Below are positions 16,036 to 42,664 of a DNA stretch of 47,034 nucleotides, piece by piece. The position numbers and the translations under genes were made by a program. Every line of letters begins with the position of its first letter. Position 1 is the stretch's first letter. The notes below the pieces were generated by a model. It searched no databases. It was not told where the DNA came from and was given only the letters and a program-made list of their open reading frames with translations. The stretch lies in NCBI GenBank assembly GCA_008501575.1, contig QQUO01000294.1, forward strand, positions 1 through 47,034, read 5' to 3'. Source of the stretch: Pseudomonadota bacterium. Its GTDB lineage: Bacteria; Pseudomonadota; Gammaproteobacteria; Xanthomonadales; Marinicellaceae.

Positions 16036-16574
16036 ACGTCATTGAGCGCCTGGGCGACCAGATAGTCACATTAGCCGAAGCAAAGGCAAACAGCCGTGTC
16101 ACATCGACTGCTGAAGATACTTTGTTTCAGCATTGGATTGATGTTGCGCACGACGATGTTGAAGGTGATGCAGGATTAGTCTTACAGCGCGCCAAATGCA
16201 CTCAGGTTGATCGCGAGTGTGAGTATATCGACCTATCGGCCCCGGTACGCGGAATTGTTAGCGTAAAAGACGGCTCAGGTGATGATGTTGATTATGAGAT
16301 AGTAGAGACATCGAAATATGGCGCAAGATTGACATTCACAAAGCAATCACAAGTCAAAGTGACCTATATTGCCGGCTTTGGCGAATATATAGTCACTGGA
16401 GCCGAAACAGCGGTTAATGAGGGTGATATTGCGCCTTATCCACTTGCTAAAGCGGCCGTATTGGTCCTGACAAATCATTATTACGAAAACAGGGGTGTCG
16501 TGACTGACTTTAGCACTTACCCGGTGCCGGTCGGGTTTGACCGCATTATTCAATTGATAACCAAGTACAGATAA
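16032..16574 (+). CDS. Head-tail connector (gp6-like adaptor)
   Basis: VTLAEAK...RV....ED, V.Y.AGFG and AVL.L..HYYENR motifs. Confidence 0.9.
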   Translation: MNVIERLGDQIVTLAEAKANSRVTSTAEDTLFQHWIDVAHDDVEGDAGLVLQRAKCTQVDRECEYIDLSAPVRGIVSVKDGSGDDVDYEIVETSKYGARLTFTKQSQVKVTYIAGFGEYIVTGAETAVNEGDIAPYPLAKAAVLVLTNHYYENRGVVTDFSTYPVPVGFDRIIQLITKYR

Positions 16575-17053
16575 TGCACGTTACAGCCTTTGAGAACGCG
16601 AAAAAGTTCGCTCATAAGTACAACGCCACGGATAAAAAGGTTCTGGACGTCGGTTCATACGACGTAAATGGAACCCTAAAACCATTATTCCGTGACTATA
16701 CCGGCATGGACATCGAAAAGGGCCCTAACGTGGATGTGGTGGCTAAATTAGGTCAGCCATTTCCGTTTGATGACCAGTCGGTCGATGTGATTGTGTCATC
16801 ATCATGCCTTGAGCATGACCCGTCATTCTGGGTCACTGTAAAAGAAATGATGCGCGTGGCCGGTGAACTGATTTACATAAACGTGCCATCAGCGCAGTTT
16901 TACCACGCTTATCCGATTGACTGCTGGCGGTTTTTGGCTGATTCGATGGCCGCACTGGCTGAATTATCTGATGATTGGGAATTGGTCGAAACATACATCG
17001 ACGACCGAGATCCTTGGTGCGATTGCGTAGGGATTTTTAAGCGTGTCAAATAA
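16574..17053 (+). CDS. Class I SAM-dependent methyltransferase (small-molecule/glycan type)
   Basis: VLDVGS.DVNG, G.D...GPNVD.V, PF.D.S.D..VSSS.LEH, YH.YP.DCWRF. Confidence 0.88.
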   Translation: MHVTAFENAKKFAHKYNATDKKVLDVGSYDVNGTLKPLFRDYTGMDIEKGPNVDVVAKLGQPFPFDDQSVDVIVSSSCLEHDPSFWVTVKEMMRVAGELIYINVPSAQFYHAYPIDCWRFLADSMAALAELSDDWELVETYIDDRDPWCDCVGIFKRVK

Positions 17054-17690
17054 AATAATCACGCCCACCGGTGGTCGGCCGGAAGCCATAGCCAATTTAA
17101 ACGATTATTTGACCCGTCAGACATTTCAGGACTTTGAATGGATTATCCTGGATGACGTCGAGCCACACGGCCACGCTCCGAGCCGATGCGACCACTACAT
17201 CGTCGCTGATTGGGTCTGGAACGGTGAAAACACACAATCTAAGGCCGTGGCCAGGCTATTACAAGAAGTCATCGACAGTGACAAGGTGCTGATTTGTGAA
17301 GATGACGACTGGTACAGCCCACACTATGTTGAAAAAATGATTAAAGCATTGAATAATGCTGATATCGTTGGTGAGAAAAATGCCATTTATTACAACGTCA
17401 ACAATTACACATACAGGCACTGCGGAAATACAAAGCATGCAAGCTTATGCTCGACAGGTGTTACAAAGACAGGCATAGAGAGATTACGAAAATCAACTAA
17501 CAACAAATGGATTGACATGGAATTGTGGAAGTCTGGCGGTCAATTATTAAGCACACGGGACAGTTTAGGGATAAAAGGAATGCCAGGTCGTGTTGGTATT
17601 GGTGTTGGTCATGACATGGTGGCAACACCAGACCCTAACCATGAATTTTTAAAGTCAATTATTGGTGATGACGCCCGGCGTTATGTTTGA
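17043..17690 (+). CDS. GT-A fold (GT2-like) glycosyltransferase
   Basis: ITPT..RP, QT..DFEWIILDD, and EDDDWY (DxD) motifs. Confidence 0.85.
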   Translation: MSNKIITPTGGRPEAIANLNDYLTRQTFQDFEWIILDDVEPHGHAPSRCDHYIVADWVWNGENTQSKAVARLLQEVIDSDKVLICEDDDWYSPHYVEKMIKALNNADIVGEKNAIYYNVNNYTYRHCGNTKHASLCSTGVTKTGIERLRKSTNNKWIDMELWKSGGQLLSTRDSLGIKGMPGRVGIGVGHDMVATPDPNHEFLKSIIGDDARRYV

Positions 17691-17692
17691 TT

Positions 17693-18229
17693 ATGTCAAC
17701 GTTTATTATTTGCGCATCCGGTCAATCGCTGACACAAGACGACGTCGATTACTGCCGCGGCAAAGGTACGGTCATCGTCACTAATAATACCTATGAGTTG
17801 GCACCATGGGCTGATGTTCTATGGGGTTGCGATGAGGTATGGTGGGAAAAATACCCGGAAGCCATGGACTTTAAAGGCCGTAAAATATCAGTCCAATATT
17901 CCGAAGTCGAACAGATACAGACCCTTGACCGCCCCGGACTTGGATTAGAACAGGTACACACCGGCGGGAACGGTGGTTATCAGGCGATAAACTGGGCTTA
18001 TTTGCAAGGTGCGACAAAGATTGTCATGCTTGGCTTTGATATGCATGGAACGCACTGGCACGGAAAACACAAAAGAGGATTGGGTAATGTACACAATTTC
18101 AAAGCATGGATTCCAGCCTTTGGCCGATTGGCAAAAGATTTAGAAAGACAAGGTGTCGATGTGATTAACTGCACCCCGGGCACCGCCTTACACTGCTTTA
18201 AAAAACAGGACTTACGAGAAACGATATGA
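17693..18229 (+). CDS. Maf/GT42-like (sialyltransferase-fold) putative glycosyltransferase
   Basis: IICASGQSL (compare IIAGNGPSL), V.N, and NGG..AI..A...GA..I..LGFD (compare CstII SG...A..LG...I.L.G.D). Confidence 0.65.
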   Translation: MSTFIICASGQSLTQDDVDYCRGKGTVIVTNNTYELAPWADVLWGCDEVWWEKYPEAMDFKGRKISVQYSEVEQIQTLDRPGLGLEQVHTGGNGGYQAINWAYLQGATKIVMLGFDMHGTHWHGKHKRGLGNVHNFKAWIPAFGRLAKDLERQGVDVINCTPGTALHCFKKQDLRETI

Positions 18230-29348: not shown

Positions 29349-29547
29349 AACAGTACCCCAAGAAGTCTACATCCCCCAAGCATGCCAAATTGACTATTCA
29401 CAAATCAAATGCAACCACCCCACAGTCACCGGCATGTCCTATAAAGACGGCCTACTCACATTCGCCGAAGCCATCGACACCTGCCTATCATCCATCCACG
29501 CCATAATCCAAACCTGCACCCGCCCAGAACACATATGGCGCCAATAA
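29245..29547 (+). CDS. o-spanin (Rz1-like lipoprotein)
   Basis: Signal peptide with lipobox-like LTNC; overlaps the i-spanin 3' end; Pro/Cys-rich. Confidence 0.78.
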   Translation: MNKRSKYPLPAAVLILLSAMMLTNCSNNKPEVVIKTVPQEVYIPQACQIDYSQIKCNHPTVTGMSYKDGLLTFAEAIDTCLSSIHAIIQTCTRPEHIWRQ

Positions 29548-29548
29548 C

Positions 29549-29570
29549 TTGGCAACATATTTGGCAACAT
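29549..29570. repeat. Putative integrase arm-type sites
   Basis: Direct repeat TTGGCAACAT at 29549 and 29561, about 90 bp from the att core. Confidence 0.6.
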
Positions 29571-29655
29571 CTGAGCCAAATATCCCCAATTCAGCAATAC
29601 CCACCAAACGCAAACATAGCTATACCGCGCTGTTTGTTTCTCAGTAATTCCCCAA

Positions 29656-29683
29656 GCGGGTTCGATTCCCGCCGCCTCCACCA
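29656..29683 (+). other. ssrA: attR: displaced 3' end of tmRNA (T-arm, acceptor strand, CCA)
   Basis: GCGGGTTCGATTCCCGCCGCCTCCACCA, with an Ala-type acceptor (CTCCACCA). Upstream is phage DNA with no matching 5' half, so this is a fragment. Confidence 0.8.
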
Positions 29684-29690
29684 ATAAAAC

Positions 29691-29719
29691 GGGTCGCCCC
29701 TTAAAAGGCGGCCTTTTTT
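29691..29719 (+). terminator. Terminator after the ssrA 3' end
   Basis: GGGTCGCC-ccttaaaa-GGCGGCCTTTTTT. Confidence 0.7.
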
Positions 29720-30285
29720 ATTGGTGGAGGCGGCGGAAATGAGTAAGAACCCTACGAAGTGGGTTCGACTAATTTGGCAGGATAGCCAAATTGAACGCAC
29801 GAAGTGCGGCCCGAAGGGGAAAATTACATGGATGTAATTTTATCATCCCGCCGCTAAGTTTCAGGTTAAGTAAGATATTCAAAAGAACCTATAACGGGTG
29901 GCCTTTTTTATTTGGTGGAGGCGCGGTAACGAACCCTTCGCAAGGGGTTCGACTAATTTTGCAGGACAGCAAAATTGAACGCACGAAGTGCGGCCCGAAG
30001 GGGTAAATTACATGGATGTAATTTTATCATCCCGCCGCTAAGTTTCAGGTTAAGTAAGATATTCAAAAGAACCTATAACGGGTGGCCTTTTTTATTTGGT
30101 GGAGGCGGCAATTCTGAATCGAACCCTTACGTAGTGGGTTCGACTGAGGGCTTTCCGATTCGACTTAAACAAACAAGTCTGGCTTTCCACCCAATCTGGC
30201 TGCGCCCTCGTGCTTATCCTTAACACGCCAGGAAATAAACCCTGCCATCTCAACGATAAACACAATGGCTTTATCATCCCGCCGC
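29710..30285. repeat. Tandem ~184-bp structured repeat (two near-identical units and one diverged)
   Basis: GGGTTCGACT at 29761, 29945 and 30136; GGCCTTTTTTA(T)TTGGTGGAGGCG at 29710, 29900 and 30084; TTTATCATCCCGCCGCTA occurs three times. Confidence 0.9.
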
Positions 30286-30659: not shown

Positions 30660-31496
30660 ATGACTAAAAAGAATCAAAAAATTGATGTTCAGGGGACACA
30701 GGTTACAGTTACCCGAAAAGATCAATTGGAACACATCAGCCTGACAGATATTGCGAAACACAAAGATTCTGAGCGCACTGATTATATTATCCAAAACTGG
30801 CTGCGAAACAAGAATACGATTGAATTTTTGGGAATTTGGGAAAAGCTAAATAATTCCGATTTTAATCCCATCGAATTCGAGGGGTTTAGAAACCGAGCAG
30901 GACTAAACAGCTTTGTACTCACCACCAAACAATGGGTTGAAAAAACCAATGCCATAGGACTTGTTTCCAAAGCAGGACGATATGGTGGTACATTTGCCCA
31001 TAAAGACATCGCTTTTGAATTTGCTTCTTGGATTTCAGTAGAATTCAAGCTCTATCTTATTAAAGAGTTTCAGCGTTTACAGGAAAAGCAACAAAAATCT
31101 CTCGACTGGAATGTAAAACGAAGCCTAACGAAAATCAATTATCGAATTCATACAGATGCTGTCAGGTCTCATTTAATTCCAGCCCATTTAAGTAAACAAC
31201 AAATCAATCTGGTTTATGCCAATGAAGCTGATGTGCTGAATATGGCGTTGTTCAGCCAATCAGCTAAACAATGGCGTGAAGAAAATCCAGACAAAGATGG
31301 CAATATGCGCGACTACGCCAATGTCAGTCAACTTGTTTGTCTGGCCAACCTGGAAAACCTCAATGCTGTATGGATTGATGAGGGTTTAGCACAATCAGAC
31401 CGTCTGGTAAGACTCAATCAAGTCGCCATACAACAAATGCGGTTATTGACGCAAGATGGTTCGGCTAATCGATTAGAAGATAAGAAAGGTGAGTGA
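30660..31496 (+). CDS. KilA-N domain DNA-binding protein
   Basis: ISLTDIAK, IQNWLR.KNTIEFLG.WE, GRYGGTFAHKDIAFEFASWIS.EFKLYLIKEFQRL. Confidence 0.92.
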   Translation: MTKKNQKIDVQGTQVTVTRKDQLEHISLTDIAKHKDSERTDYIIQNWLRNKNTIEFLGIWEKLNNSDFNPIEFEGFRNRAGLNSFVLTTKQWVEKTNAIGLVSKAGRYGGTFAHKDIAFEFASWISVEFKLYLIKEFQRLQEKQQKSLDWNVKRSLTKINYRIHTDAVRSHLIPAHLSKQQINLVYANEADVLNMALFSQSAKQWREENPDKDGNMRDYANVSQLVCLANLENLNAVWIDEGLAQSDRLVRLNQVAIQQMRLLTQDGSANRLEDKKGE

Positions 31497-31996: not shown

Positions 31997-33580
31997 ATGA
32001 CCGAAGACCAAAAGAAAAACCTTGAAACCCAGCTTTGGGGGATTGCCAATTTATTGCGGGGGAAAATTTCTGCCGATGATTATCGTGATTACATTCTGGG
32101 CTTTATCTTCTTTAAATACCTCTCGGAAAAACAATACCTGTACGCCAATGAGCTGCTGATGGGCGAAGCCGTGACTGAATACACCGAAGTCACCGATGCC
32201 GAAACCCTGAAAGCCATTGAAGAAGAATCGGTGCTTAAACTCGGTTATTATCTGGCACCCACGGATCTGTTTCGGGAATTGGTGGCAAAGGGACAAGGTA
32301 AGGCTGCAGCGAATCAGGACGGCGATGAATCCAATTACATCCTTGAAGACCTGCAGGCGGTGCTGAATCACATCGAAGACAGCACCCGGAACACCGAATC
32401 CGAAGACGATTTTAATGCCTTATTCGAAGACTTGGATTTACAGTCCAGTAAACTCGGCCGCACGGTGAAAGCCCGCAATGACATTGTGGTCGAAATTCTC
32501 GGCTTTTTAAGTAAGATTGATTTTAAACTCGATCAAATCGATTCCGATGTCCTCGGTGATGCCTATGAATACCTGATTGCGAAATTCGCCGCCGGGGCAG
32601 GTAAGTCAGCCGGTGAATTTTATACCCCGCAAAAGGTCTCGAAGATACTGGCGAAAATCGTCACCACCGGTAAAGACCGATTGCGTTCAGTGTATGATCC
32701 CACTTGTGGTTCCGGTTCCTTGCTGTTGCGGGTGCAAAAGGAAGCCGAGGTGGCTGAGTTTTATGGTCAGGAATTAAACCGCACCACCTATAACCTGGCG
32801 CGCATGAACATGATTATGCACGATGTCCATTACCGGGATTTCGATATCCGTCAGGATGACACCTTAGAAAACCCAGCGCATATTGATATGCGCTTCGAAG
32901 CCGTGGTCGCCAATCCGCCATTCTCGGCGCATTGGAAATCAAGCGGCAATCCCTTAAACAATAACGACGAACGCTTCAGCCCCTACGGCCGACTGGCCCC
33001 GAAAACCAAAGCCGATTACGCCTTCCTGACCCACATGCTCTATCAGCTCGATGATAACGGCATTATGGCCTCAGTCTTTCCCCACGGCGTCTTATTCCGT
33101 GGTGCCGCCGAAGGTGTGATTCGTGAATACATTATCCGCGAAATGAACGCCCTCGATGCCGTTATCGGCTTACCCGCCAATATCTTCTACGGTACCAGCA
33201 TTCCCACCTGTATTCTGGTGCTCAGAAAAGACCGCAAGCCTGATGACAAGGTGGTCTTTATCGACGCCAGTGGCGACGGGCATTTCATCAAAGAAGGCAA
33301 CCAGAACGTCCTGCGCGACGAAGATGTGGATTTAATCGTCGAAACATATAGAAAGCGCGAAGCCAAAGACAAATTCAGCCACATCGCCAGCTTAGCCGAA
33401 ATCGCCGAAAACGATTACAACCTGAATATCCCCCGGTATGTGGATACTTTTGAGGAGGAAGAGCCGGTGGATCTCAAAGCCGTCTCAATGGAACTGAAAC
33501 AACTGGATAAGGAACTGGCAGAAACCAACAAAGACATTCAAAAGTATTGTGATGAACTTGGGATTGAGACGCCGTTTTGA
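31997..33580 (+). CDS. hsdM: Type I restriction-modification methyltransferase subunit
   Basis: LW.IAN.LRG, GEFYTP, YDPTCGSGSLL, NPPF, PHGVLFRG, YNLNIPRYVD. Confidence 0.97.
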   Translation: MTEDQKKNLETQLWGIANLLRGKISADDYRDYILGFIFFKYLSEKQYLYANELLMGEAVTEYTEVTDAETLKAIEEESVLKLGYYLAPTDLFRELVAKGQGKAAANQDGDESNYILEDLQAVLNHIEDSTRNTESEDDFNALFEDLDLQSSKLGRTVKARNDIVVEILGFLSKIDFKLDQIDSDVLGDAYEYLIAKFAAGAGKSAGEFYTPQKVSKILAKIVTTGKDRLRSVYDPTCGSGSLLLRVQKEAEVAEFYGQELNRTTYNLARMNMIMHDVHYRDFDIRQDDTLENPAHIDMRFEAVVANPPFSAHWKSSGNPLNNNDERFSPYGRLAPKTKADYAFLTHMLYQLDDNGIMASVFPHGVLFRGAAEGVIREYIIREMNALDAVIGLPANIFYGTSIPTCILVLRKDRKPDDKVVFIDASGDGHFIKEGNQNVLRDEDVDLIVETYRKREAKDKFSHIASLAEIAENDYNLNIPRYVDTFEEEEPVDLKAVSMELKQLDKELAETNKDIQKYCDELGIETPF

Positions 33581-33703: not shown

Positions 33704-34903
33704 ATGGATAATGGACAATTAATACCTGAGTTGAGATTTTCTCAATTTGAAGGAGGTTGGAGTTCAAATAAATTCGGTGATATTGCTAGTTTTAGCAGAG
33801 GTAAAGGAATATCCAAATCCGATATTGATGAAAGTGGTCATTTAGAATGTATTCGATATGGTGAGTTATATACTCATTATAACGAGGTCATTGATGATGT
33901 AATATCTCGAACTAACGTACACAAAACAAAGTTAATTCTTTCAGAAGCTGATGATGTCATCATTCCTGCATCAGGCGAAACGCAGATTGATATTGCGACA
34001 GCATCATGTGTTAAAAAGTCAGGGGTGGCATTAAGTGGTGACTTGAACATCATTAAATCCAAACTTAATGGTGTGTTTCTAGCCTACTATTTAAACAATA
34101 AAAAGAAGCTTGATATTGCTCGATTATCTCAAGGGATTTCAGTTGTACATTTGTACAGTAGCCAACTCAAAAGTTTGATTCTCAATTTTCCTGACGATGT
34201 AGAACAACAAAAAATCGCCAACTTCCTTACCGCCATCGACCAACGCATTACCTTACTCAAAGAAAAAAAAGCCGCCCTCGAACAATACAAAAAAGGCCTG
34301 ATGCAGAAAATTTTTAGTCAGGAGGTTCGGTTTACAGATGATGAGGGGAATGGTTTTCCGGATTGGGAGGAAGGTAAATAAAATTCATTATGTAAAGTAA
34401 ATCCGAAATCCGACGATTTGCCTAAAACATTTATTTATATTGATTTAGAAAGTGTAAAAGATGGTCAATTGCAACTTGAGAACAGGGTACAAAAAGAAGA
34501 TGCACCATCAAGAGCACAGAGGTTGCTTGAAAAAGGTGACATTCTCTACCAAATGGTTAGGCCATACCAAAAAAACAATTTGTATTTTAATAAAAATGAC
34601 GAGTATGTTGCATCAACCGGTTATGCCCAGTTAAGAGCAAAACAAAATAATGAGTTTTTATATTATTTGATTCATACGGAATCTTTTGTGAATTCGATTT
34701 TGCGTTTATGTACAGGATCCAATTATCCAGCAATTAACTCAACAGATTTAGCAACTGTGAAAATCAGTTATCCATGTAAAGAAGAACAACAAAGAATCGC
34801 CAATTTTCTGTCCGCCATCGATCAAAAAATCAATACTATAGATAAGCAAATTGACGATTCGGAATTGTTTAAAAAGGGCTTATTGCAGCGGATGTTTGTT
34901 TGA
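33704..34903 (+). pseudogene. hsdS: Type I R-M specificity subunit with a single in-frame TAA at 34379-34381
   Basis: PELRF..F, two EQ..IANFL.AIDQ.I conserved regions, KKGL.Q..F. The two track ORFs are in the same frame, separated only by one stop. Confidence 0.9.
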
Positions 34904-34915
34904 GAAGAGAAATAT

Positions 34916-37063
34916 ATGATTAATAGAGAGAAAACAATAGAACTATATAAAAAATATGGGTTTAAACATAGAAAAAGCTCATCAGGTAATTATTTTTTAG
35001 GGTTTACATATAAAACTGGATTTTTCAATAATGCAGAACTTGTTTCCTTAATAGGTGAAGACAAAGAAAAAGTTGAGTTAGAAATGAATGATAAAGCTAA
35101 TGAACTTGAAAAATTAGGCTTTTCAACAAAAAAAACATTTTACTCTTCATTTAATGAAATAGAAACTCAGTTATTCAAGGGTTTTTTTAATGTAAGTCAA
35201 TGGAAGAAGAATATTAAACACGAATATGAAAGTTTCATCAATAATATTTTGAAATCACTTCCAGATAATTCTTGCAAATATAAATATATAAATTCGCCTT
35301 ACATTAAAAATAGCAAAAAAGGTGAATCAAAAATTGTAGAAGAAGTTTGTAATGGGCTAAATGAGAAAGGTGCAGAACTAACAATAATTGAAGCTCCGGC
35401 AGGGTTTGGGAAAACTAGTACTTCTTATGAAATTTTAAATTGGTTACTTGAAAATACAGATTATCCAATACCTTTTTTTACAGAGTTCTCTAGAGATAGG
35501 CAAGCTCAAGTCTTTAGTCATATATTAATTCGAGAAGTAGACAGATCATTTACTTCAGTAAATTCTGATTTGGTTATAGAGCAAGTTAAAAAGGGACGAA
35601 TAATTATAGTTTTAGATGGTTTTGATGAACTTCTTCATGAAAGTGCTAATGATGATAAAAATAATCAAAAAGAAAACTTTGAAAGTACTGAACCAATGCT
35701 TGAAACAATTAGTGAATTATTAACAGATAATTCAAAAGTTATTTTGACATCACGTAGATCAGCTATTTTTGATGGCGAGTTATTTAATGAATGGGTAGAT
35801 AAATACGCAGATACTTTCAGAATTAACAGATATCGAATTGAATCACCAAATATAACAGATTGGCTGGATGATGAAAAAATAAAGAAACTAAAAAAAGTGA
35901 ATATTCAAATAGAGGATTTGGCTAATCCAGTTCTTTTAACATTTTTAAGAAGTATAAATATTAGAAAACTTAAAAAACTTTGCGAAACCCCTAAGCTAAT
36001 TGTAGAACATTACTTTGAATCTATGCTTGAGAGAGAAATTGATAGGCAAAACTTAAGAATGAGTGTCGATCAGCAAAATAAATTATTTAAGTTAATTGCT
36101 CAGGATATGTCTAGTAATGATTATACAACTATTTCAAAAGAAGCTTTAATATCCTTTATTAAAGAGAAGGCAAAAGATATATTGCAAAAAGTTAGAGAAT
36201 CATACTCAGCTCAAAATAGGCCAACTATTGATAAGCTCTCCAACACACTATCAAATCATGCTTTTTTTGATAAAAGTAGCTATGGCGAAAATAATATAGA
36301 ATTTATAAATGAGTTTGTTTTCGGTAATTATATTGGTCTTAATATTTTAGAGTTTGATGGGAATTGGATAGCAAGTGATGAAAGGTTTGTTGAACCAGCA
36401 GTTAATTCTTATATTGCAAGAGATTGGGACACTAGAAAGCGTCTATGGAAAAAGCTAGAAAGTATAAATGAGTTTTTAGAGCCTTCAATAAGACATAAAT
36501 TCGAAGCTCAACTTACACGTGTTGTTAATGATAATAGTTATGATGGCGTAGATATTTCATCGTTAAATTTAAAAAATATAAAATTTTTTAAAAAAGGATC
36601 AATCAATAAAAGTATTTACCATAATTGTACTTTCACAAATTGTATATTCTATCTTGAAAATTTTAATGATGTTACATTTTTAAATTGTACCTTTTGGAAT
36701 TGTTTATTTGAATTTCATGAGATTAGTGAGCAATCCATACAATTTTACAACTGTAAAGACAATACTAATGTAATCCAATCATATGAGGAATCATTTCAAG
36801 ATGATGAACAAACTGAAAAACCAGACGTGCAAAAATATATACTTACAAAAATATGGCCCTTAAGTCAGCCTTCATTAAGAAGAATTCATTACTTTTTATC
36901 TAATTTGTTTCAAACAGATGAATTTACTAAAAAAGAATTAATAAAGGGTATTAAAGAACTAAAATCGAAAGAGATATTGATTGATGCCCATGATTCAAAT
37001 TTTATTCAAATAAATAAACATAAAATCAACGAATTTAAAAAGATTCAAGGAAGAAGCGAATGA
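34916..37063 (+). CDS. NACHT/STAND-like P-loop NTPase with pentapeptide-like repeats
   Basis: EAPAGFGKTS (Walker A), IIIVLDGFDEL (Walker B), VILTSR, NPVLL; NCTFTNCIF...NCTFWNCLF repeats. Confidence 0.85.
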   Translation: MINREKTIELYKKYGFKHRKSSSGNYFLGFTYKTGFFNNAELVSLIGEDKEKVELEMNDKANELEKLGFSTKKTFYSSFNEIETQLFKGFFNVSQWKKNIKHEYESFINNILKSLPDNSCKYKYINSPYIKNSKKGESKIVEEVCNGLNEKGAELTIIEAPAGFGKTSTSYEILNWLLENTDYPIPFFTEFSRDRQAQVFSHILIREVDRSFTSVNSDLVIEQVKKGRIIIVLDGFDELLHESANDDKNNQKENFESTEPMLETISELLTDNSKVILTSRRSAIFDGELFNEWVDKYADTFRINRYRIESPNITDWLDDEKIKKLKKVNIQIEDLANPVLLTFLRSINIRKLKKLCETPKLIVEHYFESMLEREIDRQNLRMSVDQQNKLFKLIAQDMSSNDYTTISKEALISFIKEKAKDILQKVRESYSAQNRPTIDKLSNTLSNHAFFDKSSYGENNIEFINEFVFGNYIGLNILEFDGNWIASDERFVEPAVNSYIARDWDTRKRLWKKLESINEFLEPSIRHKFEAQLTRVVNDNSYDGVDISSLNLKNIKFFKKGSINKSIYHNCTFTNCIFYLENFNDVTFLNCTFWNCLFEFHEISEQSIQFYNCKDNTNVIQSYEESFQDDEQTEKPDVQKYILTKIWPLSQPSLRRIHYFLSNLFQTDEFTKKELIKGIKELKSKEILIDAHDSNFIQINKHKINEFKKIQGRSE

Positions 37064-37926
37064 TTGATCACTTAAATACGAAATTTATTGAACGGGAAAT
37101 TGTAAGAGAGATTAGTGAAATACTTAACAGTGTTGGAATTATGTTTAGGATTTTTTCAAGATCAAAATCAAGTAGATCTGTCAGTAAAAAAATAGAATCT
37201 GATCAAGAATATGGCAAATCAAAAAAGATTCAAGATTTGTTAGGCATAAGAATAGTACTGTATTTTAATGATGATATAGAAACTGTCCGAAATATCATAT
37301 CAAGGAGTTACTCTGAAAGTTCTAATGATGTAAGTATTGATGCAGTTAATAGTGAACAGTTTAAAGCATTACGATATAACATTATTTATAAATTACCTTC
37401 AAATCATAAAGAGGATTTAAAGTTAGAAGATTTATCAAATTTATTTGATTATACTTTTGAGCTTCAAATTAGAACTATTTTTTCAGAGGGTTGGCATGAA
37501 GTAGAGCACGATCTAAGGTACAAATGTAAATCCGATTGGAAGAGTTATGAGTTACAAAGTAGATTACTAAATGGTGTCTATGCATCTTTAGAAACAAATG
37601 AATGGACTATGATAAAAATTTTTGATGAACTTTCATATAACCATTATTTGAATAAAGAATGGGAAGCAATGTTTAGACAAAAATTTAGAATGAGATTTTT
37701 AGAGGATAAAATAAGTTCTGATATAAATACAATTTTTCAAAATAATTCAATAGCTAAAAAATTTTTCAGAATTGAAAGAAACAAACTTATTGAAGAAATG
37801 AATCTTAGAGGGTTTTATTTCCCAATAACTATAGATAATATCATTTATTTTGGTAATTTGGTTTTTGTTAAAAATAGTGAGATAAAAAGAATAACTCCAA
37901 ATATAATGATAAATGACATGACTTAA
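37060..37926 (+). CDS. RelA/SpoT-domain nucleotidyltransferase (small alarmone synthetase-like)
   Basis: R.KS..S...KI, QDLLGIRIV, FELQIRT...EGWHEVEHDLRYK; ATGA-coupled to the NTPase. Confidence 0.88.
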   Translation: MIDHLNTKFIEREIVREISEILNSVGIMFRIFSRSKSSRSVSKKIESDQEYGKSKKIQDLLGIRIVLYFNDDIETVRNIISRSYSESSNDVSIDAVNSEQFKALRYNIIYKLPSNHKEDLKLEDLSNLFDYTFELQIRTIFSEGWHEVEHDLRYKCKSDWKSYELQSRLLNGVYASLETNEWTMIKIFDELSYNHYLNKEWEAMFRQKFRMRFLEDKISSDINTIFQNNSIAKKFFRIERNKLIEEMNLRGFYFPITIDNIIYFGNLVFVKNSEIKRITPNIMINDMT

Positions 37927-38080
37927 ATGCAGAAGTTTAAGTGGTCAATTATTTTTTAAAAACTTGGACCTCCGGGTGGCTTACAGGAAGTAAGTCTGCA
38001 ACGATAGCAATGGACGCGATAGTCGTCACCAAGAGTAGGGCCTTTAAGGCAGCCCGAAGGTGTCGCGGTTTGTTGGAAGA

Positions 38081-38103
38081 TTGATGGGCGGAGCCCATCC
38101 TAC
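38081..38103. repeat. Single REP
   Basis: TTGATGGGCGGAGCCCATCCTAC. Confidence 0.75.
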
Positions 38104-38292
38104 GCTTTCTATCATCACGCATAATGTCCTAAGTCCCGGGACGTGGGACAAGCTCTATTGACAAGGACAATTATTAGATAAATCAGGATTTTTTTAAGTA
38201 AAGAGATTAATACCCAATAATATTAAATATTTGGTAAATATGTTAAAAAGTGGTCGTTAAAGATTTATGAATGCACGTTATGAACTAAGTAT

Positions 38293-38943
38293 ATGATTAT
38301 TTTCTTGGATGAATCTGGTGACTTGGGTTTTGATTTTGAAAATAAGAGTCCATCGAGCTATTTTGTGATTACATTACTCGTTTGTGATGGTAAACCAGCC
38401 ACAGATTCTTTTAAAGTGGCAGTAAAGCGTGCTTTGAAAAATAAACTTAACCACAAGAAATCCAGAAGAAAAGTACAGGAACTGCATGCGACTCAATTAA
38501 GCTTTTCGATAAAAAAATATTTTTACAAGCAAATTAAATGTTTCGATTGGCAGATTTACACAATCGGATTAAATAAAAGAAATGTGTTTGAATACCTGAC
38601 GAATAAGGTGGGTCGCAAAAAACTGTATAATTATTTAGCCAACTACATCATTGAAAAAGTTAATTTTAAACGCGCCACTTCGGCGGTGACTTTAGTGGTG
38701 GATAAATGTAAGAATAAAGCTGAGATAGAGGACTTTAATCAGTATTTAGAGAATCAGTTAGAAGGGGAATTGCCATTGGAAACTTCCCTAAATGTGTACC
38801 ATGCAGATTCAATGAATAGTTTTGGTTTACAGGCGGTTGATTTATTTTGTTGGGGTGTGTTTCGAAAATACGAACGACAAGATTTGCAATGGTATGATAT
38901 TTATAAAAAACAGATTAAGTTCGAAACGGAATATTTGAAATGA
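38293..38943 (+). CDS. DUF3800 family protein
   Basis: IFLDESGDLG, ELH, and C-terminal S....GLQAVD motifs. Confidence 0.88.
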   Translation: MIIFLDESGDLGFDFENKSPSSYFVITLLVCDGKPATDSFKVAVKRALKNKLNHKKSRRKVQELHATQLSFSIKKYFYKQIKCFDWQIYTIGLNKRNVFEYLTNKVGRKKLYNYLANYIIEKVNFKRATSAVTLVVDKCKNKAEIEDFNQYLENQLEGELPLETSLNVYHADSMNSFGLQAVDLFCWGVFRKYERQDLQWYDIYKKQIKFETEYLK

Positions 38944-38951
38944 AAATCAGG

Positions 38952-39048
38952 CAAAAAAAAGACGGCCCCTGTTATGTCGATAATCTTCAAACTCTTGCCA
39001 ACCGATGGAAGGGAACATTTGAAGCACATAAGAGGATTTACCCGTCTG
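38952..39048 (-). ncRNA. DUF3800-associated ncRNA (~95 nt), convergent with the gene
   Basis: Nested stems AGACGG/CCGTCT, TTATGT/ACATAA and CTTCAAA/TTTGAAG. It has its own minus-strand promoter and a U8 tail. Confidence 0.75.
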
Positions 39049-39053
39049 TTTCA

Positions 39054-39082: not shown

Positions 39083-39117
39083 GTATTTAATGATTAAACA
39101 GGCCTATATTGACTAAA

Positions 39118-41970
39118 ATGACCACCCAATCCGAACAAACCCTCGAAAACAGCCTGATTAAACAACTCACCGAACTGGGTTACTCGCGTGTTCATGTCAG
39201 TAATGACAAGGAACTGGTAGCTAACTTTAAAATCCAGCTGGAGCGTTTTAACGATGTTTCGTTAAGTGACCATGAGTTTAAGCAAATCCTCAATAGCATC
39301 AATAAGGGCAGTGTGTTTAATCGGGCGGGGATTTTACGGGATCGGGTGACGTATATGGATGGTGCGGGTGAGACCCGGACGGTACAGTTATTGGATGTCT
39401 TTAATTTAGATAAGAATACCTTTCAGGTGACGCAGCAGGTAAGGATGGAGGGGCGTTATCAGAATAGATATGATGTGACGATTTTGATTAATGGCTTGCC
39501 CTTGGTGCAGATTGAATTAAAGCGTCGCGGTTTGGAGCTGAAAGAGGCGTTTAATCAGATTAACCGTTATGAAAAACATTCCTATTGGTCGGGGCATGGT
39601 TTATTTCAGTTTGTGCAGTTGTTTGTGATTAGTAATGGCGTGAATACCAAGTACTTCGCTAACAATGCCATTGCCTCTCGTTCCTTTAAGCAGACCTTTT
39701 ACTGGAGCACCGAGGACAATAAGCAGGTGACGGATTTAAGCGCGTTCGCTGCGGCTTTTTTGTATCCGGGTCATCTGGCGAAAATGATTGCGCAGTATAT
39801 TGTTTTAAATGAAACTGAGAAGATGCTGATGGTGCTCAGGCCTTATCAGTATTACGCCACCGAGGCGATTGTCGAGCGGGTGAAAACGTCAAGCGATTAC
39901 GGTTATATCTGGCACACCACCGGTTCCGGTAAAACCTTGACCTCGTTTAAAACCGCACAAATTCTCACGGCTTTACCGGCGGTGCATAAGGTGGTGTTTG
40001 TGGTGGACCGCAAAGACCTCGATTATCAGACCAGTAAGGAATTTAATAAATTCGCCAAAGGCAGTATTGATGCCACGGAGAACACCGATGCGCTGGTGGA
40101 TCAGTTAACCGATGATACCGGCTTAGTGGTGACCACCATTCAAAAGCTCAATAATGCCATCAGTAAACAAAAATACCTGCAGAAGCTGGCGCATTTACAG
40201 GATAAAAAAGTAGTGTTTATTTTTGATGAATGTCACCGCAGTCAATTCGGTGATACCCATGGTCGGATTAAGGAGTTCTTTCAGGCCTGTCAGATGTTCG
40301 GTTTCACCGGCACGCCGATCTTTGTTGAAAATGCCATTAAGAATGACCTGGGTAAACGCACCACCGCCATGTTATTCGGCGACTGCCTGCATAAATATGT
40401 GATTACCGATGCCATCCGTGATGGCAATGTCTTAAAGTTCTCCATTGAGTACATTAATACCTTTAAACAAAAAAGTACCATTGATGACATTAAAGTCGAA
40501 GACATCAATGAGGACGAGGTCTTTAATGCCCCGGAACGCCTGAACTTAGTCACCGATTACATCATTCAGAACCACGCCAGGAAAACCCATAATAAGTCCT
40601 TCACGGCGATATTCTGCGTCTCAAGCATTGAAACCCTGATTCAGTATTATCAGCTGTTCCTCGATAAGAAAGCCCAAGGTGAGCATAATTTAAAGCTGGC
40701 CACCATTTTTTCCTACCAGGCCAATGAAGAAGATCAGGACGCCCAAGGTTTAGGCGCCACCGATGTTGACTATCAGATGTTACAAGCGGCCGAGAAGGGC
40801 GGGGCTTATTCAAGCCACAGCCGTGATCACCTGGAACATTTTATCGGCGAATACAACCAACAATTCGGCAGTAATTACACCACCAAAGATTCCAAATCCT
40901 TTTATAATTACTACACCGATATCGCCAAGCGGGTTAAAGCCAAACAAATCGATATTCTACTGGTGGTGAATATGTTCCTCACCGGTTTCGACAGTAAGCC
41001 CCTAAATACTTTGTACGTGGATAAAAACCTGAAATTCCACGGTCTGATTCAAGCCTTTTCCAGAACCAACCGAATTTACAATGAGCTGAAATCACAGGGC
41101 AATATTGTCTGTTTCCGTAACCTCAAAGACGCCACCGATGATGCCATCCGCTTATTCTCCAGCCTGGATAATAAAGATGACATCATTATTCCGCCCTATG
41201 AAGATTATCTGGAGAAATTCGGCCTCGCCTATGCGCTGTTATTGAGCTTAGCGCCGACGGTGGATAGTGTTAATGACCTACAAACGGAAGAAGATGAGTT
41301 CGCCTTCGTGAAAGCCTTTCGGGAGCTAATGCGCATTAAAAACGTCCTCACCAGCTTCACTGATTTTAGTTTCGATGACTTGGACATGGATGCCCAGGAA
41401 TTTGAAGATTACAAAAGCAAATACCTGGATTTATACGATAAAGTCCACCGCCACACTGAAAAAGAAAAAGTCTCAATTCTCGATGACCTTGACTTCGAAC
41501 TGGAACTGATTCACCGCGATGAAATTAACGTGGTCTATATCGTTAATTTACTGAAAGGCCTGAAAGATGTGCCGGAAGCGGAACAGAAAAAACAAAAAGA
41601 CCAGATTATCAACGCCATGATGAGCGAAGTCGAACTGCGCAGTAAACGCGAACTGATTGAAAAATTCATCAATAAACACCTGCCACTGATTGCCGACGCC
41701 GAATCAGTCCCCGACGCCTTTGACGCCTTCTGGGAAGCCGAAAAACAACGCGCCATCAAACTATTCTCAGAAACCGAACAACTCGACCCCGAGAAACTCG
41801 AATCCGTCATCGGCGACTTTCTTTACACCAAACGCGAACCCATGCGCGAAGACGTCATCAGCATGATGAAAACCCGCCCCAAACTCAAAGAACGCGCCAC
41901 CACCGCCGAACGCCTCATCCAAAAAGTCACCCATTACGTGGATACTTTTGTCAGTGGGATGGGTGGGTGA
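39118..41970 (+). CDS. hsdR: Type I restriction endonuclease subunit R
   Basis: RYDVTILINGLPLVQIELK, WHTTGSGKT, FDECHRSQFG, GFTGTP, QAFSRTNR. Confidence 0.97.
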   Translation: MTTQSEQTLENSLIKQLTELGYSRVHVSNDKELVANFKIQLERFNDVSLSDHEFKQILNSINKGSVFNRAGILRDRVTYMDGAGETRTVQLLDVFNLDKNTFQVTQQVRMEGRYQNRYDVTILINGLPLVQIELKRRGLELKEAFNQINRYEKHSYWSGHGLFQFVQLFVISNGVNTKYFANNAIASRSFKQTFYWSTEDNKQVTDLSAFAAAFLYPGHLAKMIAQYIVLNETEKMLMVLRPYQYYATEAIVERVKTSSDYGYIWHTTGSGKTLTSFKTAQILTALPAVHKVVFVVDRKDLDYQTSKEFNKFAKGSIDATENTDALVDQLTDDTGLVVTTIQKLNNAISKQKYLQKLAHLQDKKVVFIFDECHRSQFGDTHGRIKEFFQACQMFGFTGTPIFVENAIKNDLGKRTTAMLFGDCLHKYVITDAIRDGNVLKFSIEYINTFKQKSTIDDIKVEDINEDEVFNAPERLNLVTDYIIQNHARKTHNKSFTAIFCVSSIETLIQYYQLFLDKKAQGEHNLKLATIFSYQANEEDQDAQGLGATDVDYQMLQAAEKGGAYSSHSRDHLEHFIGEYNQQFGSNYTTKDSKSFYNYYTDIAKRVKAKQIDILLVVNMFLTGFDSKPLNTLYVDKNLKFHGLIQAFSRTNRIYNELKSQGNIVCFRNLKDATDDAIRLFSSLDNKDDIIIPPYEDYLEKFGLAYALLLSLAPTVDSVNDLQTEEDEFAFVKAFRELMRIKNVLTSFTDFSFDDLDMDAQEFEDYKSKYLDLYDKVHRHTEKEKVSILDDLDFELELIHRDEINVVYIVNLLKGLKDVPEAEQKKQKDQIINAMMSEVELRSKRELIEKFINKHLPLIADAESVPDAFDAFWEAEKQRAIKLFSETEQLDPEKLESVIGDFLYTKREPMREDVISMMKTRPKLKERATTAERLIQKVTHYVDTFVSGMGG

Positions 41971-42472: not shown

Positions 42473-42550
42473 GTAGGATGGGCTCCGCCCATCAAATGAT
42501 TACGGTGGTTTGCTAAAACTGGGCAGTTTGATGGGCAGAGCCCATCCTAC
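42473..42550. repeat. REPIN, near-identical to 41985-42062
   Basis: Same 78-bp structure with a few substitutions. Confidence 0.88.
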
Positions 42551-42664
42551 GATTATTTGGTTACAATTCGTACGGCTTTCAGCTTTCATCAAAATTTTTA
42601 ATAAACATGTCTGTAGTTGGCTACAATAGATAATTGTCATTGGTTTAAATTAAGGAGCGCCACC

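What the first reader, a model, noticed from the sequence alone, without database searches (positions are those of the whole stretch)
34916..37926. NACHT/STAND NTPase plus RelA/SpoT-like enzyme embedded between hsdS and hsdR: candidate new two-gene anti-phage system
Seen: a translationally coupled pair (ATGA overlap), much more AT-rich than hsdM and hsdR. The NTPase has Walker A/B, a NACHT-like TSR sensor, pentapeptide-like repeats and no recognisable N-terminal effector. The partner has synthetase motifs but a divergent FKALRYNII segment where GY.S.H is usual. Established: STAND NTPases (Avs, bacterial NACHT) sense phage; toxic small alarmone synthetases (toxSAS, CapRel) act as effectors; PrrC occupies this same hsdS-hsdR slot. 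Inference: a sensor plus nucleotide-signal or tRNA-pyrophosphorylating effector that backs up the R-M system.
Basis: partly seen in the sequence, partly recalled or inferred. Interest (0 to 1): 0.8.

Follow-up and report, generated by a model that had tools for sequence, protein, structure and literature searches.

The report
NLR sensor docking an alarmone synthetase
Two overlapping genes that almost always travel together across many bacterial phyla encode an NLR-like immune receptor and a RelA/SpoT-type enzyme predicted to dock on the receptor's N-terminal domain, so they likely form an untested anti-phage system in which the receptor would switch on a growth-arresting nucleotide synthetase.

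Summary
In detail: a 715-aa NACHT NTPase and a 288-aa RelA/SpoT small alarmone synthetase (SAS), ATGA-coupled, 26-27% GC. The N-terminus is not empty: it is Pfam NA-iREase2, an inactive nuclease fold. The genes are an obligate module: NACHT precedes SAS in 74 of 80 genome loci, SAS follows NACHT in 74 of 74 checkable metagenome loci, across many phyla, prophages and 67 of 5426 E. coli genomes. A complex model docks the SAS C-terminal helices on NA-iREase2, away from the active site (0.67; best control 0.02). E. coli strains keep wild-type SAS with a broken NACHT, so NACHT is likelier activator than antitoxin. The 'divergent' loop (F-x3-R-x-N) is invariant family-wide while catalytic residues stay intact; its Tyr-to-Phe change impairs other toxSAS, so the product is open. 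The hsdS-hsdR position is a cargo hotspot, not conserved. Closest: bacterial NACHTs and PANGU type I. No paper on the pair was found in ten searches; this scan noted it before on E. coli DNA (e1-018396). Defence is inferred, untested.

The parts
34916..37063 (+). NACHT-family STAND NTPase, 715 aa: NA-iREase2 - NACHT (NBD, HD1, WHD) - helical - pentapeptide repeat - C-terminal alpha/beta domain (likely winged helix)
   Evidence: Pfam; AlphaFold model pLDDT 89.6; best structural matches NOD2/NLRP3 NACHT, Z 13, and Avs4
34937..35308 (+). NA-iREase2 domain (aa 8-131), inactive restriction-endonuclease fold; predicted docking site for the SAS (residues 17-69)
   Evidence: PF22723 E 7e-31; complex model; G68 kept in 94 of 97
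35393..35416 (+). Walker A APAGFGKT (K166)
   Evidence: sequence; K166 in 97 of 97
35600..35629 (+). Walker B IIIVLDGFDE
   Evidence: sequence; D234, D237, E238 in 97 of 97
36536..37060 (+). C-terminal candidate sensor: pentapeptide repeat (aa ~541-618) and a small alpha/beta domain (aa ~619-715); the most variable part of the protein
   Evidence: mean column entropy 2.46 and 2.56 bits against 1.62 for the NTPase core; no Pfam hit for 619-715; winged-helix reading is inferred from secondary structure
37060..37926 (+). RelA/SpoT small alarmone synthetase-like enzyme, 288 aa, with a family-specific C-terminal helical domain
   Evidence: PF04607; fold matches RelP/RelQ Z 14.2-14.8, Tas1 11.0, CapRel 9.7, FaRel2 6.0; R34, K36, K44, D59, R64, E134, Q136, R138, H150 in 75 of 75
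37339..37380 (+). Rebuilt acceptor loop D94...F101-x3-R105-x-N107 in place of the usual G-loop GYxSxH (F101 aligns with the Tyr, N107 with the His, two-residue insertion)
   Evidence: D94, F101, R105, N107 in 75 of 75; profile alignment to RelP
37816..37917 (+). SAS docking surface (aa 253-260 and 280-286), remote in sequence from the active site
   Evidence: complex model; P255 in 69 of 69 and 62 of 67 NACHT-paired SAS
31997..33580 (+). hsdM (context, not part of the module)
   Evidence: PADLOC MTase_I E 3e-159
33704..34903 (+). hsdS, interrupted by an in-frame TAA at 34379-34381 (context)
   Evidence: two Methylase_S ORFs in one frame; no other letter there in contigs of runs X4, X5, X8 that bridge the place (X4 and X5 may be the source)
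38293..38943 (+). DUF3800 gene, separate cargo in the same slot
   Evidence: PF12686 E 7e-16; no homologue in the 80 genome loci
38956..39052 (-). DUF3800-V RNA motif
   Evidence: Rfam RF02964 53.4 bits, gathering 37.4
39109..41970 (+). hsdR (context)
   Evidence: PADLOC REase_I 1037 bits

Best explanation
The two genes form an obligate, horizontally mobile module in which an NLR-like NACHT receptor is predicted to carry a separately encoded alarmone-synthetase-type enzyme on its inactive-nuclease N-terminal domain and likely activates it during phage infection to arrest the cell. Steps: (1) shown: the genes are coupled and co-inherited; (2) predicted: SAS helices 253-286 bind NA-iREase2 residues 17-69, leaving the active site free, so the SAS takes the place of the fused N-terminal effector of other NLRs; (3) inferred from STAND/NLR biology: a phage protein or nucleic acid bound by the fast-evolving pentapeptide/C-terminal region triggers nucleotide exchange and oligomerisation; (4) inferred: clustering of the docked SAS subunits turns them on; (5) inferred: the SAS transfers pyrophosphate from ATP to a 3'-OH acceptor. 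My odds for the product, if active: (p)ppGpp-type 0.4, (p)ppApp-type 0.2, tRNA/RNA end 0.25, another acceptor 0.15.
For: Co-occurrence: NACHT directly upstream in 74 of 80 genome loci fetched with the SAS (best 80 of 220; one of the 6 others is at a contig edge); SAS directly downstream in 74 of 80 metagenome loci fetched with the NACHT, the other 6 ending within 89 bases of the contig end (best 80 of 99); 7 of 7 full-length NACHT hits in viral contigs have the SAS. Gaps -61 to +17 bases; tree distances correlate, r 0.73 on 68 pairs, shuffled maximum 0.10; pair poorer in GC than its flanks in 55 of 55 loci. Flanking genes are not conserved (largest other cluster 5 of 80 loci). Complex model: score 0.67, best of 3 controls 0.02; the mark was reached by 116 of 157 solved complexes and 2 of 215 mismatched pairs (roughly, own alignments); runs agree in at least 90% of contacts, partner pLDDT 80-82. 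Interface residues are better kept where NACHT is present: P255 69/69 and 62/67 against 2/6 in orphans and 64/118 in SAS fusion proteins; P280 62/69 and 46/68 against 4/6 and 13/112. All ATP/Mg-site residues and both Walker motifs invariant. SAS tolerated without intact NACHT: of 9 E. coli loci compared, 5 have a frameshifted, IS-split or N-terminally deleted NACHT with an unchanged SAS, one of them with the upstream 610 bases intact. Defence/mobile context: ssrA-integrated relaxase element in E. coli; neighbours with strong PADLOC hits (100 bits or more) 28 of 264 against 3 of 150 control genes, Fisher p 0.0008; the same hsdS-hsdR slot holds AbiEii/DUF6088 or a CAP12/Pycsar TIR gene in congeners. 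Precedent: PANGU type I SAS is non-toxic alone and activated by its sensor (10.64898/2026.04.06.716658, section 3 and passages); bacterial NACHTs are antiphage and alarmone synthetases are listed among their effectors (10.1101/2022.07.19.500537, sections 8 and 12).
Against: No experiment. The G-loop Tyr is Phe in all 75 + 69 + 118 sequences checked, and Tyr-to-Phe is the substitution used to impair FaRel2 (PMC11782079 passages); the following His is Asn. Defence enrichment is not significant at the threshold set first (44 of 264 against 15 of 150 at E<1e-8, p 0.079); the stricter cut was chosen after seeing the data, four AbiE neighbours are from related Bacteroidales and the control is one genome. 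Many loci lie among housekeeping genes. Tree congruence follows from co-transfer alone. In the E. coli deletions the promoter is lost too, frameshifts near codon 347 still encode the docking domain, and one frameshifted strain has a SAS substitution next to the RxK motif. N260 of the interface is kept in 6 of 6 orphans, and half of the fusion proteins keep P255. Five SAS loci have no NACHT, and none was found in their genomes.
Confidence: 0.62

Rival explanations
1. Toxin-antitoxin logic: the SAS is a constitutive toxSAS held inactive by the resting NACHT and released when the NACHT senses phage.
For: Bicistronic overlap typical of toxSAS modules (PMC7229694 passages); predicted tight complex; NACHT never seen without SAS; E. 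coli frameshift and IS cases still encode the N-terminal docking half.
Against: Predicted contacts avoid the donor and acceptor sites, whereas toxSAS antitoxins block one of them (PMC11782079 passages); three E. coli loci keep an unchanged SAS with the docking domain deleted or separated; orphan SAS keep all catalytic residues, 6 of 6.
Confidence: 0.13
2. The SAS fold is a nucleotide-binding sensor or a weak, non-toxic signalling enzyme; defence, if any, comes from the NACHT acting on host targets, or the SAS guards the alarmone pool against phage interference.
For: Family-wide Tyr-to-Phe and His-to-Asn in the acceptor loop; Tyr-to-Phe impairs FaRel2; some NACHTs defend with no enzymatic effector (recalled for bNACHT01; notes the clade lacks effector fusions).
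Against: Every donor-site and metal residue is invariant over 262 sequences bar single changes; the same SAS clade occurs fused to an HD hydrolase domain and to other C-terminal domains, as a modular effector would.
Confidence: 0.1
3. A back-up of the type I R-M system in the manner of PrrC: the pair monitors the Hsd complex and fires when a phage inhibits it.
For: Position between hsdS and hsdR in this window; 2 of 80 loci abut a type I operon, one more has hsdR nearby.
Against: The slot is not conserved; most loci, including the E. coli element, have no R-M genes next to them; congeners have other cargo there; hsdS here is interrupted.
Confidence: 0.04
4. Not anti-phage: a stress-signalling or anti-plasmid/addiction module of mobile elements.
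For: Weak defence enrichment at the loose threshold; frequent inactivation in E. coli; non-immune STAND clades exist (PMC13581612 section 5); seat on an integrative mobilisable element.
Against: Patchy spread over many phyla, low GC, variable C-terminus, absence from 23 of 23 congeners and defence neighbours fit immunity genes; loss of the NACHT is tolerated, which does not fit addiction.
Confidence: 0.11

Closest known systems
Bacterial NLR-related NACHT proteins (bNACHT; Kibby et al., bioRxiv 10.1101/2022.07.19.500537; sections 7, 8, 12 and passages read, supplements closed)
   Same: NACHT module with Walker A/B and WHD His, C-terminal repeat sensor (pentapeptide repeats are named there), alarmone synthetases listed among effectors; Pfam already holds this protein's N-terminal family (NA-iREase2).
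   Different: There the effectors are described as fused and the tested genes as rarely in operons; here the N-terminal domain is an inactive fold and the enzyme is a separate, obligately linked gene predicted to dock on it.
PANGU type I (YejK-like NAP + GRel toxSAS; bioRxiv 10.64898/2026.04.06.716658; section 3 and passages read)
   Same: Two-gene anti-phage operon; SAS non-toxic alone, switched on by a partner that binds its C-terminal domain; makes pppGpp.
   Different: Sensor is a nucleoid protein, not a STAND NTPase; Pag1B keeps the G-loop Tyr and has an acidic DNA-mimic domain, whereas this SAS has Phe and a neutral helical C-terminus (10 K/R, 8 D/E).
toxSAS toxin-antitoxin modules and CapRel (FaRel, FaRel2, PhRel, PhRel2, CapRel; PMC7229694, PMC11782079, PMC11559606 passages)
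   Same: SYNTH fold and donor-site residues; overlapping two-gene layout; link to phage defence.
   Different: Partner is a 715-aa NLR rather than a small antitoxin; predicted interface is off the active site; no long N-terminal tRNA-binding extension (first catalytic Arg at 34 against 64 in FaRel2); rebuilt G-loop.
Avs (antiviral STAND) receptors (PMC13581612, section 5 and passages)
   Same: STAND core; Avs4 is among the fold matches.
   Different: Avs sensors are mostly long TPR arrays with fused effectors; RelA, alarmone and pentapeptide are not mentioned in the main text.
PrrC within EcoprrI (recalled, not checked in a paper)
   Same: Gene slot between hsdS and hsdR in this one locus.
   Different: No homology; slot not conserved in the family.

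Membership tests
bNACHT / NLR-related proteins | NACHT NTPase with intact Walker A, Walker B and WHD histidine | tested here: met
   K166, D234, D237, E238, R280, H448 in 97 of 97; best folds NOD2/NLRP3; Pfam NACHT E 3e-5, slightly below cut-off
bNACHT / NLR-related proteins | C-terminal repeat or variable sensor region | tested here: met
   pentapeptide repeat and highest entropy at the C-terminus
bNACHT / NLR-related proteins | N-terminal effector or adaptor in the same chain | tested here: met
   adaptor type: NA-iREase2, predicted to bind the SAS; no fused enzymatic effector, and no NACHT-SAS fusion among 120 longer SAS relatives
bNACHT / NLR-related proteins | Anti-phage activity dependent on NTP binding | not testable with these tools
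   needs plaque assays
RelA/SpoT small alarmone synthetases | SYNTH fold with RxKxxxSxxxK, DxxGxR, ExQxR and EH motifs | tested here: met
RelA/SpoT small alarmone synthetases | G-loop tyrosine and following histidine (GYxSxH) | tested here: not met
   Phe and Asn in all sequences checked
toxSAS toxin-antitoxin systems | Neighbouring antitoxin needed to neutralise a constitutive toxin | tested here: inconclusive
   unchanged SAS beside broken NACHT in 5 of 9 E. coli loci compared argues against, but expression there is unknown
toxSAS toxin-antitoxin systems | Toxicity through (pp)pApp, (pp)pGpp or tRNA-CCA pyrophosphorylation | not testable with these tools
   needs biochemistry
PANGU type I | YejK-like nucleoid-associated sensor | tested here: not met
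   partner is a NACHT NTPase
PANGU type I | GRel SAS with G-loop Tyr and acidic DNA-mimic C-terminal domain | tested here: not met
   F101; C-terminal domain neutral. Subfamily in the Atkinson scheme could not be assigned (one search found none of six accessions)
Systems modelled in PADLOC-DB 2.0 | Full-length match to a system's protein models | tested here: not met
   NACHT 0 families at E 0.01; SAS only a partial PDC-S33 hit of 23.5 bits. DefenseFinder could not be run
Hailong | HalA effector and HalB nucleotidyltransferase | tested here: not met
   only the pentapeptide stretch matches HalA, 30.6 bits against a cut-off of 250
PrrC-type R-M back-up | Conserved seat inside a type I hsd operon | tested here: not met

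The most novel reading that the evidence does not exclude
A split bacterial inflammasome: the NLR oligomer uses a dead nuclease fold as a CARD/PYD-like adaptor to cluster and activate a separately encoded RelA/SpoT enzyme, and the family's rebuilt acceptor loop (D...F-x3-R-x-N, invariant across phyla and across fusions to other sensors) makes it pyrophosphorylate an acceptor other than GDP/GTP, giving an undescribed alarmone or RNA modification.
Probability: 0.2. Interest if true: 0.88.

Novelty: new variant of a known kind. Interest (0 to 1): 0.68.

Why it matters
It would be a bacterial NLR that recruits its effector in trans through an adaptor domain, as animal inflammasomes do, would give a function to the Pfam NA-iREase2 domain, and would join NLR sensing to stringent-response chemistry. 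The SAS clade has a rebuilt acceptor loop, so it may make a new product. A native E. coli copy (WP_000944877.1 + WP_000282312.1) makes every step directly testable.

Tried and rejected
Single-protein scan of viral contigs with the SAS found nothing; alignments did. No match of the NACHT in 50,697 GenBank phage records. Search for a NACHT-SAS fusion among longer relatives: none of 120 hit the NACHT profile (weak evidence). The C-terminal part of the ~620-aa Clostridia SAS fusions got no Pfam, PDB-sequence or Atlas assignment; a START-like fold, as in 10.64898/2026.10.19.760177 section 34, is a lead only. Profile comparison with the genome's own RelA was too weak to place the G-loop. A first, cruder alignment overstated loss of the interface prolines in fusions; one search is the count used. 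HD fusion was considered as proof of a nucleotide product and rejected, since hydrolases also remove tRNA pyrophosphate (PMC11559606 passage). No RNA holder listed for the locus. Literature: ten searches gave no paper on this pair; accession or keyword searches in supplements of PMC13581612, PMC13069673, PMC13092281 and PMC7229694 were blank for it, but the large STAND tables of PMC13581612 could not be read, bioRxiv supplements are closed and the journal version of Kibby et al. is not held; these may list the family. PMC10853773 (passages) concerns another iREase. R-M back-up reading rejected as above.
Full report
Observation. The first protein is NA-iREase2 (PF22723, residues 8-131, E 7e-31) followed by a NACHT module, a pentapeptide repeat and a small C-terminal domain; its model matches NOD2, NLRP3 and Avs4. 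The second is a RelA/SpoT SYNTH protein closest in fold to RelP/RelQ (Z 14.2-14.8, rmsd 3.0-3.3 over 171-175 residues), then Tas1 (11.0), CapRel (9.7) and FaRel2 (6.0). PADLOC 2.0 has no model for the NACHT and only a weak partial PDC-S33 hit for the SAS.

The pair is a family. The SAS alignment found 220 relatives among one-per-species genomes; of the best 80, from Pseudomonadota, Bacteroidota, Bacillota, Campylobacterota, Cyanobacteria, Desulfobacterota and Myxococcota by record title, 74 have the NACHT immediately upstream. Of the other six, one is at a contig edge, one is a deletion remnant whose SAS is 94% identical to a paired copy, three form a Bacteroidales orphan clade among housekeeping genes and one stands alone; no NACHT was found in the five genomes searched. 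In reverse, 74 of the best 80 metagenome NACHT loci have the SAS downstream and the other six end at the contig edge. Seven viral contigs carry the pair, as do 67 of 5426 E. coli genomes, in the loci opened on an element with relaxase and integrase, next to ssrA, and a few plasmids carry the NACHT (6 records; the one opened has the SAS). It is absent from 23 of 23 congeners searched. Trees of the two proteins agree (r 0.73, 68 pairs; 29 of 33 supported SAS splits recur in the NACHT tree, 35 of 51 the other way), and the pair is poorer in GC than its flanks in 55 of 55 loci with long flanks. Congruence shows co-transfer, not binding.

Context. No flanking gene is conserved. The pair was not seen between hsdS and hsdR in any of the 80 loci; two abut type I operons. 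In the two congeners where hsdS and hsdR were both in view, the slot holds AbiEii plus DUF6088, or a CAP12/Pycsar TIR gene with transposases: a cargo hotspot, not a partnership. I scanned the two nearest ORFs of 100 aa or more on each side (264 of 1012 ORFs called) against PADLOC: 44 hit at E<1e-8 against 15 of 150 control ORFs from the window's genome (p 0.079); at 100 bits or more, 28 against 3 (p 0.0008) (hand counts; test). The second cut was set after seeing the data, kin are not independent and the control is one genome, so the enrichment is suggestive only.

Enzyme. R34, K36, K44, D59, R64, E134, Q136, R138 and H150 are invariant in 75 aligned SAS and in 69 further metagenome copies. 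The segment flagged as divergent is a family signature: D94, F101, R105 and N107 in 75 of 75; profile alignment to RelP puts F101 on the G-loop Tyr and N107 on the His, with a two-residue insertion. This cuts both ways: it is under strong selection, but Tyr-to-Phe is the change used to impair FaRel2 (PMC11782079, passages). The protein lacks the long N-terminal extension that FaRel2 uses for tRNA (first catalytic Arg 34 against 64) and ranks with nucleotide synthetases in fold, so I lean to a nucleotide product. The same clade is fused to an HD domain in two proteins and, in 118 Clostridia-type proteins, to an unassigned C-terminal region with Lys at 105: it behaves as a modular effector.

How they connect. 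One complex job with paired 68-row alignments (NACHT 3-713, whole SAS) scored 0.67 in three runs against a best control of 0.02; that mark was reached by 116 of 157 solved complexes and 2 of 215 mismatched pairs, roughly applicable here; runs agree in at least 90% of contacts and partner pLDDT is 80-82. The model supports binding and does not show it. Contacts join NA-iREase2 residues 17-69 to SAS 253-260 and 280-286, not the active site. P255 and P280 are better kept in NACHT-paired SAS than in orphans or fusions, though not cleanly. In E. coli, of nine loci compared (picked from the listing mostly for looking broken), five have a disrupted NACHT with an unchanged SAS, one has a disrupted NACHT with one SAS substitution beside the RxK motif, three are intact. 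That fits an activator better than an antitoxin, with the caveats that deletions remove the promoter region and frameshifts leave the docking half.

Mechanism. Most likely the resting NACHT carries a silent SAS on its N-terminus; a phage cue bound by the variable C-terminus (entropy 2.5 against 1.6 bits in the core) drives oligomerisation, which clusters and activates the SAS, and the product halts growth. Coupling and co-inheritance are shown, docking is predicted, trigger, activation, product and defence are inferred.

Known relatives and novelty. Kibby et al. (10.1101/2022.07.19.500537; sections 7, 8, 12 and passages) showed NACHT defence and list alarmone synthetases and adaptors among effectors, so the combination of kinds is anticipated; PANGU type I (10.64898/2026.04.06.716658; section 3 and passages) shows a sensor-activated, non-toxic-alone SAS. 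Neither describes this pair. Ten library searches and the readable supplements found no account of it; unreadable supplements (Kibby tables, STAND clade tables of PMC13581612) may list it. That the Pfam family derives from the Kibby work is recalled, not checked. An earlier agent of this scan reported the same system on E. coli DNA (e1-018396); that is a repeat, not support. New here are the predicted docking mode, the invariant rebuilt loop and the natural knock-outs. Verdict: real, a new variant of known kinds, credible but untested defence system; interest 0.68.

Noticed in passing
window 34379-34381: hsdS has an in-frame TAA after the first target-recognition half; contigs of three runs bridging it show the same letters. 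The R-M system is either disabled or runs on a half-size HsdS (half-size subunits recognising symmetric sites are recalled from EcoR124I/EcoDXXI work).
   Followed up: partly
window 761-29750: A lambdoid siphovirus prophage (repressor, O/P replication, terminase, portal, capsid, tape measure, endolysin) ending at a tmRNA 3' fragment near 29500-29683 with an inverted copy to about 29740 and a ~190-base tandem duplication at 29707-30145. Its head-tail region carries a SAM methyltransferase-like and an alpha-2,3-sialyltransferase-like gene (16574-18229).
   Followed up: no
window 38293-39052: DUF3800 gene followed by a DUF3800-V RNA on the opposite strand, a second cargo in the hsdS-hsdR slot.
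   Followed up: no
window 30660-31496: KilA-N protein matching PADLOC candidate PDC-S22 at 435 bits, upstream of hsdM.
   Followed up: no
window 37970-38110, 42000, 42480-42555: Short repeats shared with other contigs, including a GTAG-type REP-like hairpin; congeners have Y1 (RAYT-like) transposases in this locus.
   Followed up: no
L177:863-2794; proteins P0262-P0381: A sister clade of the SAS (about 600-700 aa, Lachnospiraceae/Clostridia by the few names given) fused to an unassigned ~330-aa C-terminal region, with the same rebuilt loop; single cases add adenosine deaminase (P0366) or AAA_28 plus CYTH (P0511). Possibly the START-Tox-RelA fusions of the ParA preprint.
   Followed up: partly
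L015:2395-3669; P0410: NACHT-paired SAS fused to a C-terminal HD (alarmone hydrolase-like) domain, a miniature bifunctional Rel.
   Followed up: partly
L066, L078, L080: Bacteroidales orphan SAS clade, catalytic residues intact, docking proline lost, two with the same downstream housekeeping genes: possible domestication.
   Followed up: partly
L190-L199: The E. coli copy is often broken by IS elements, frameshift or deletion, mostly in the NACHT gene, which hints at a fitness cost.
   Followed up: partly
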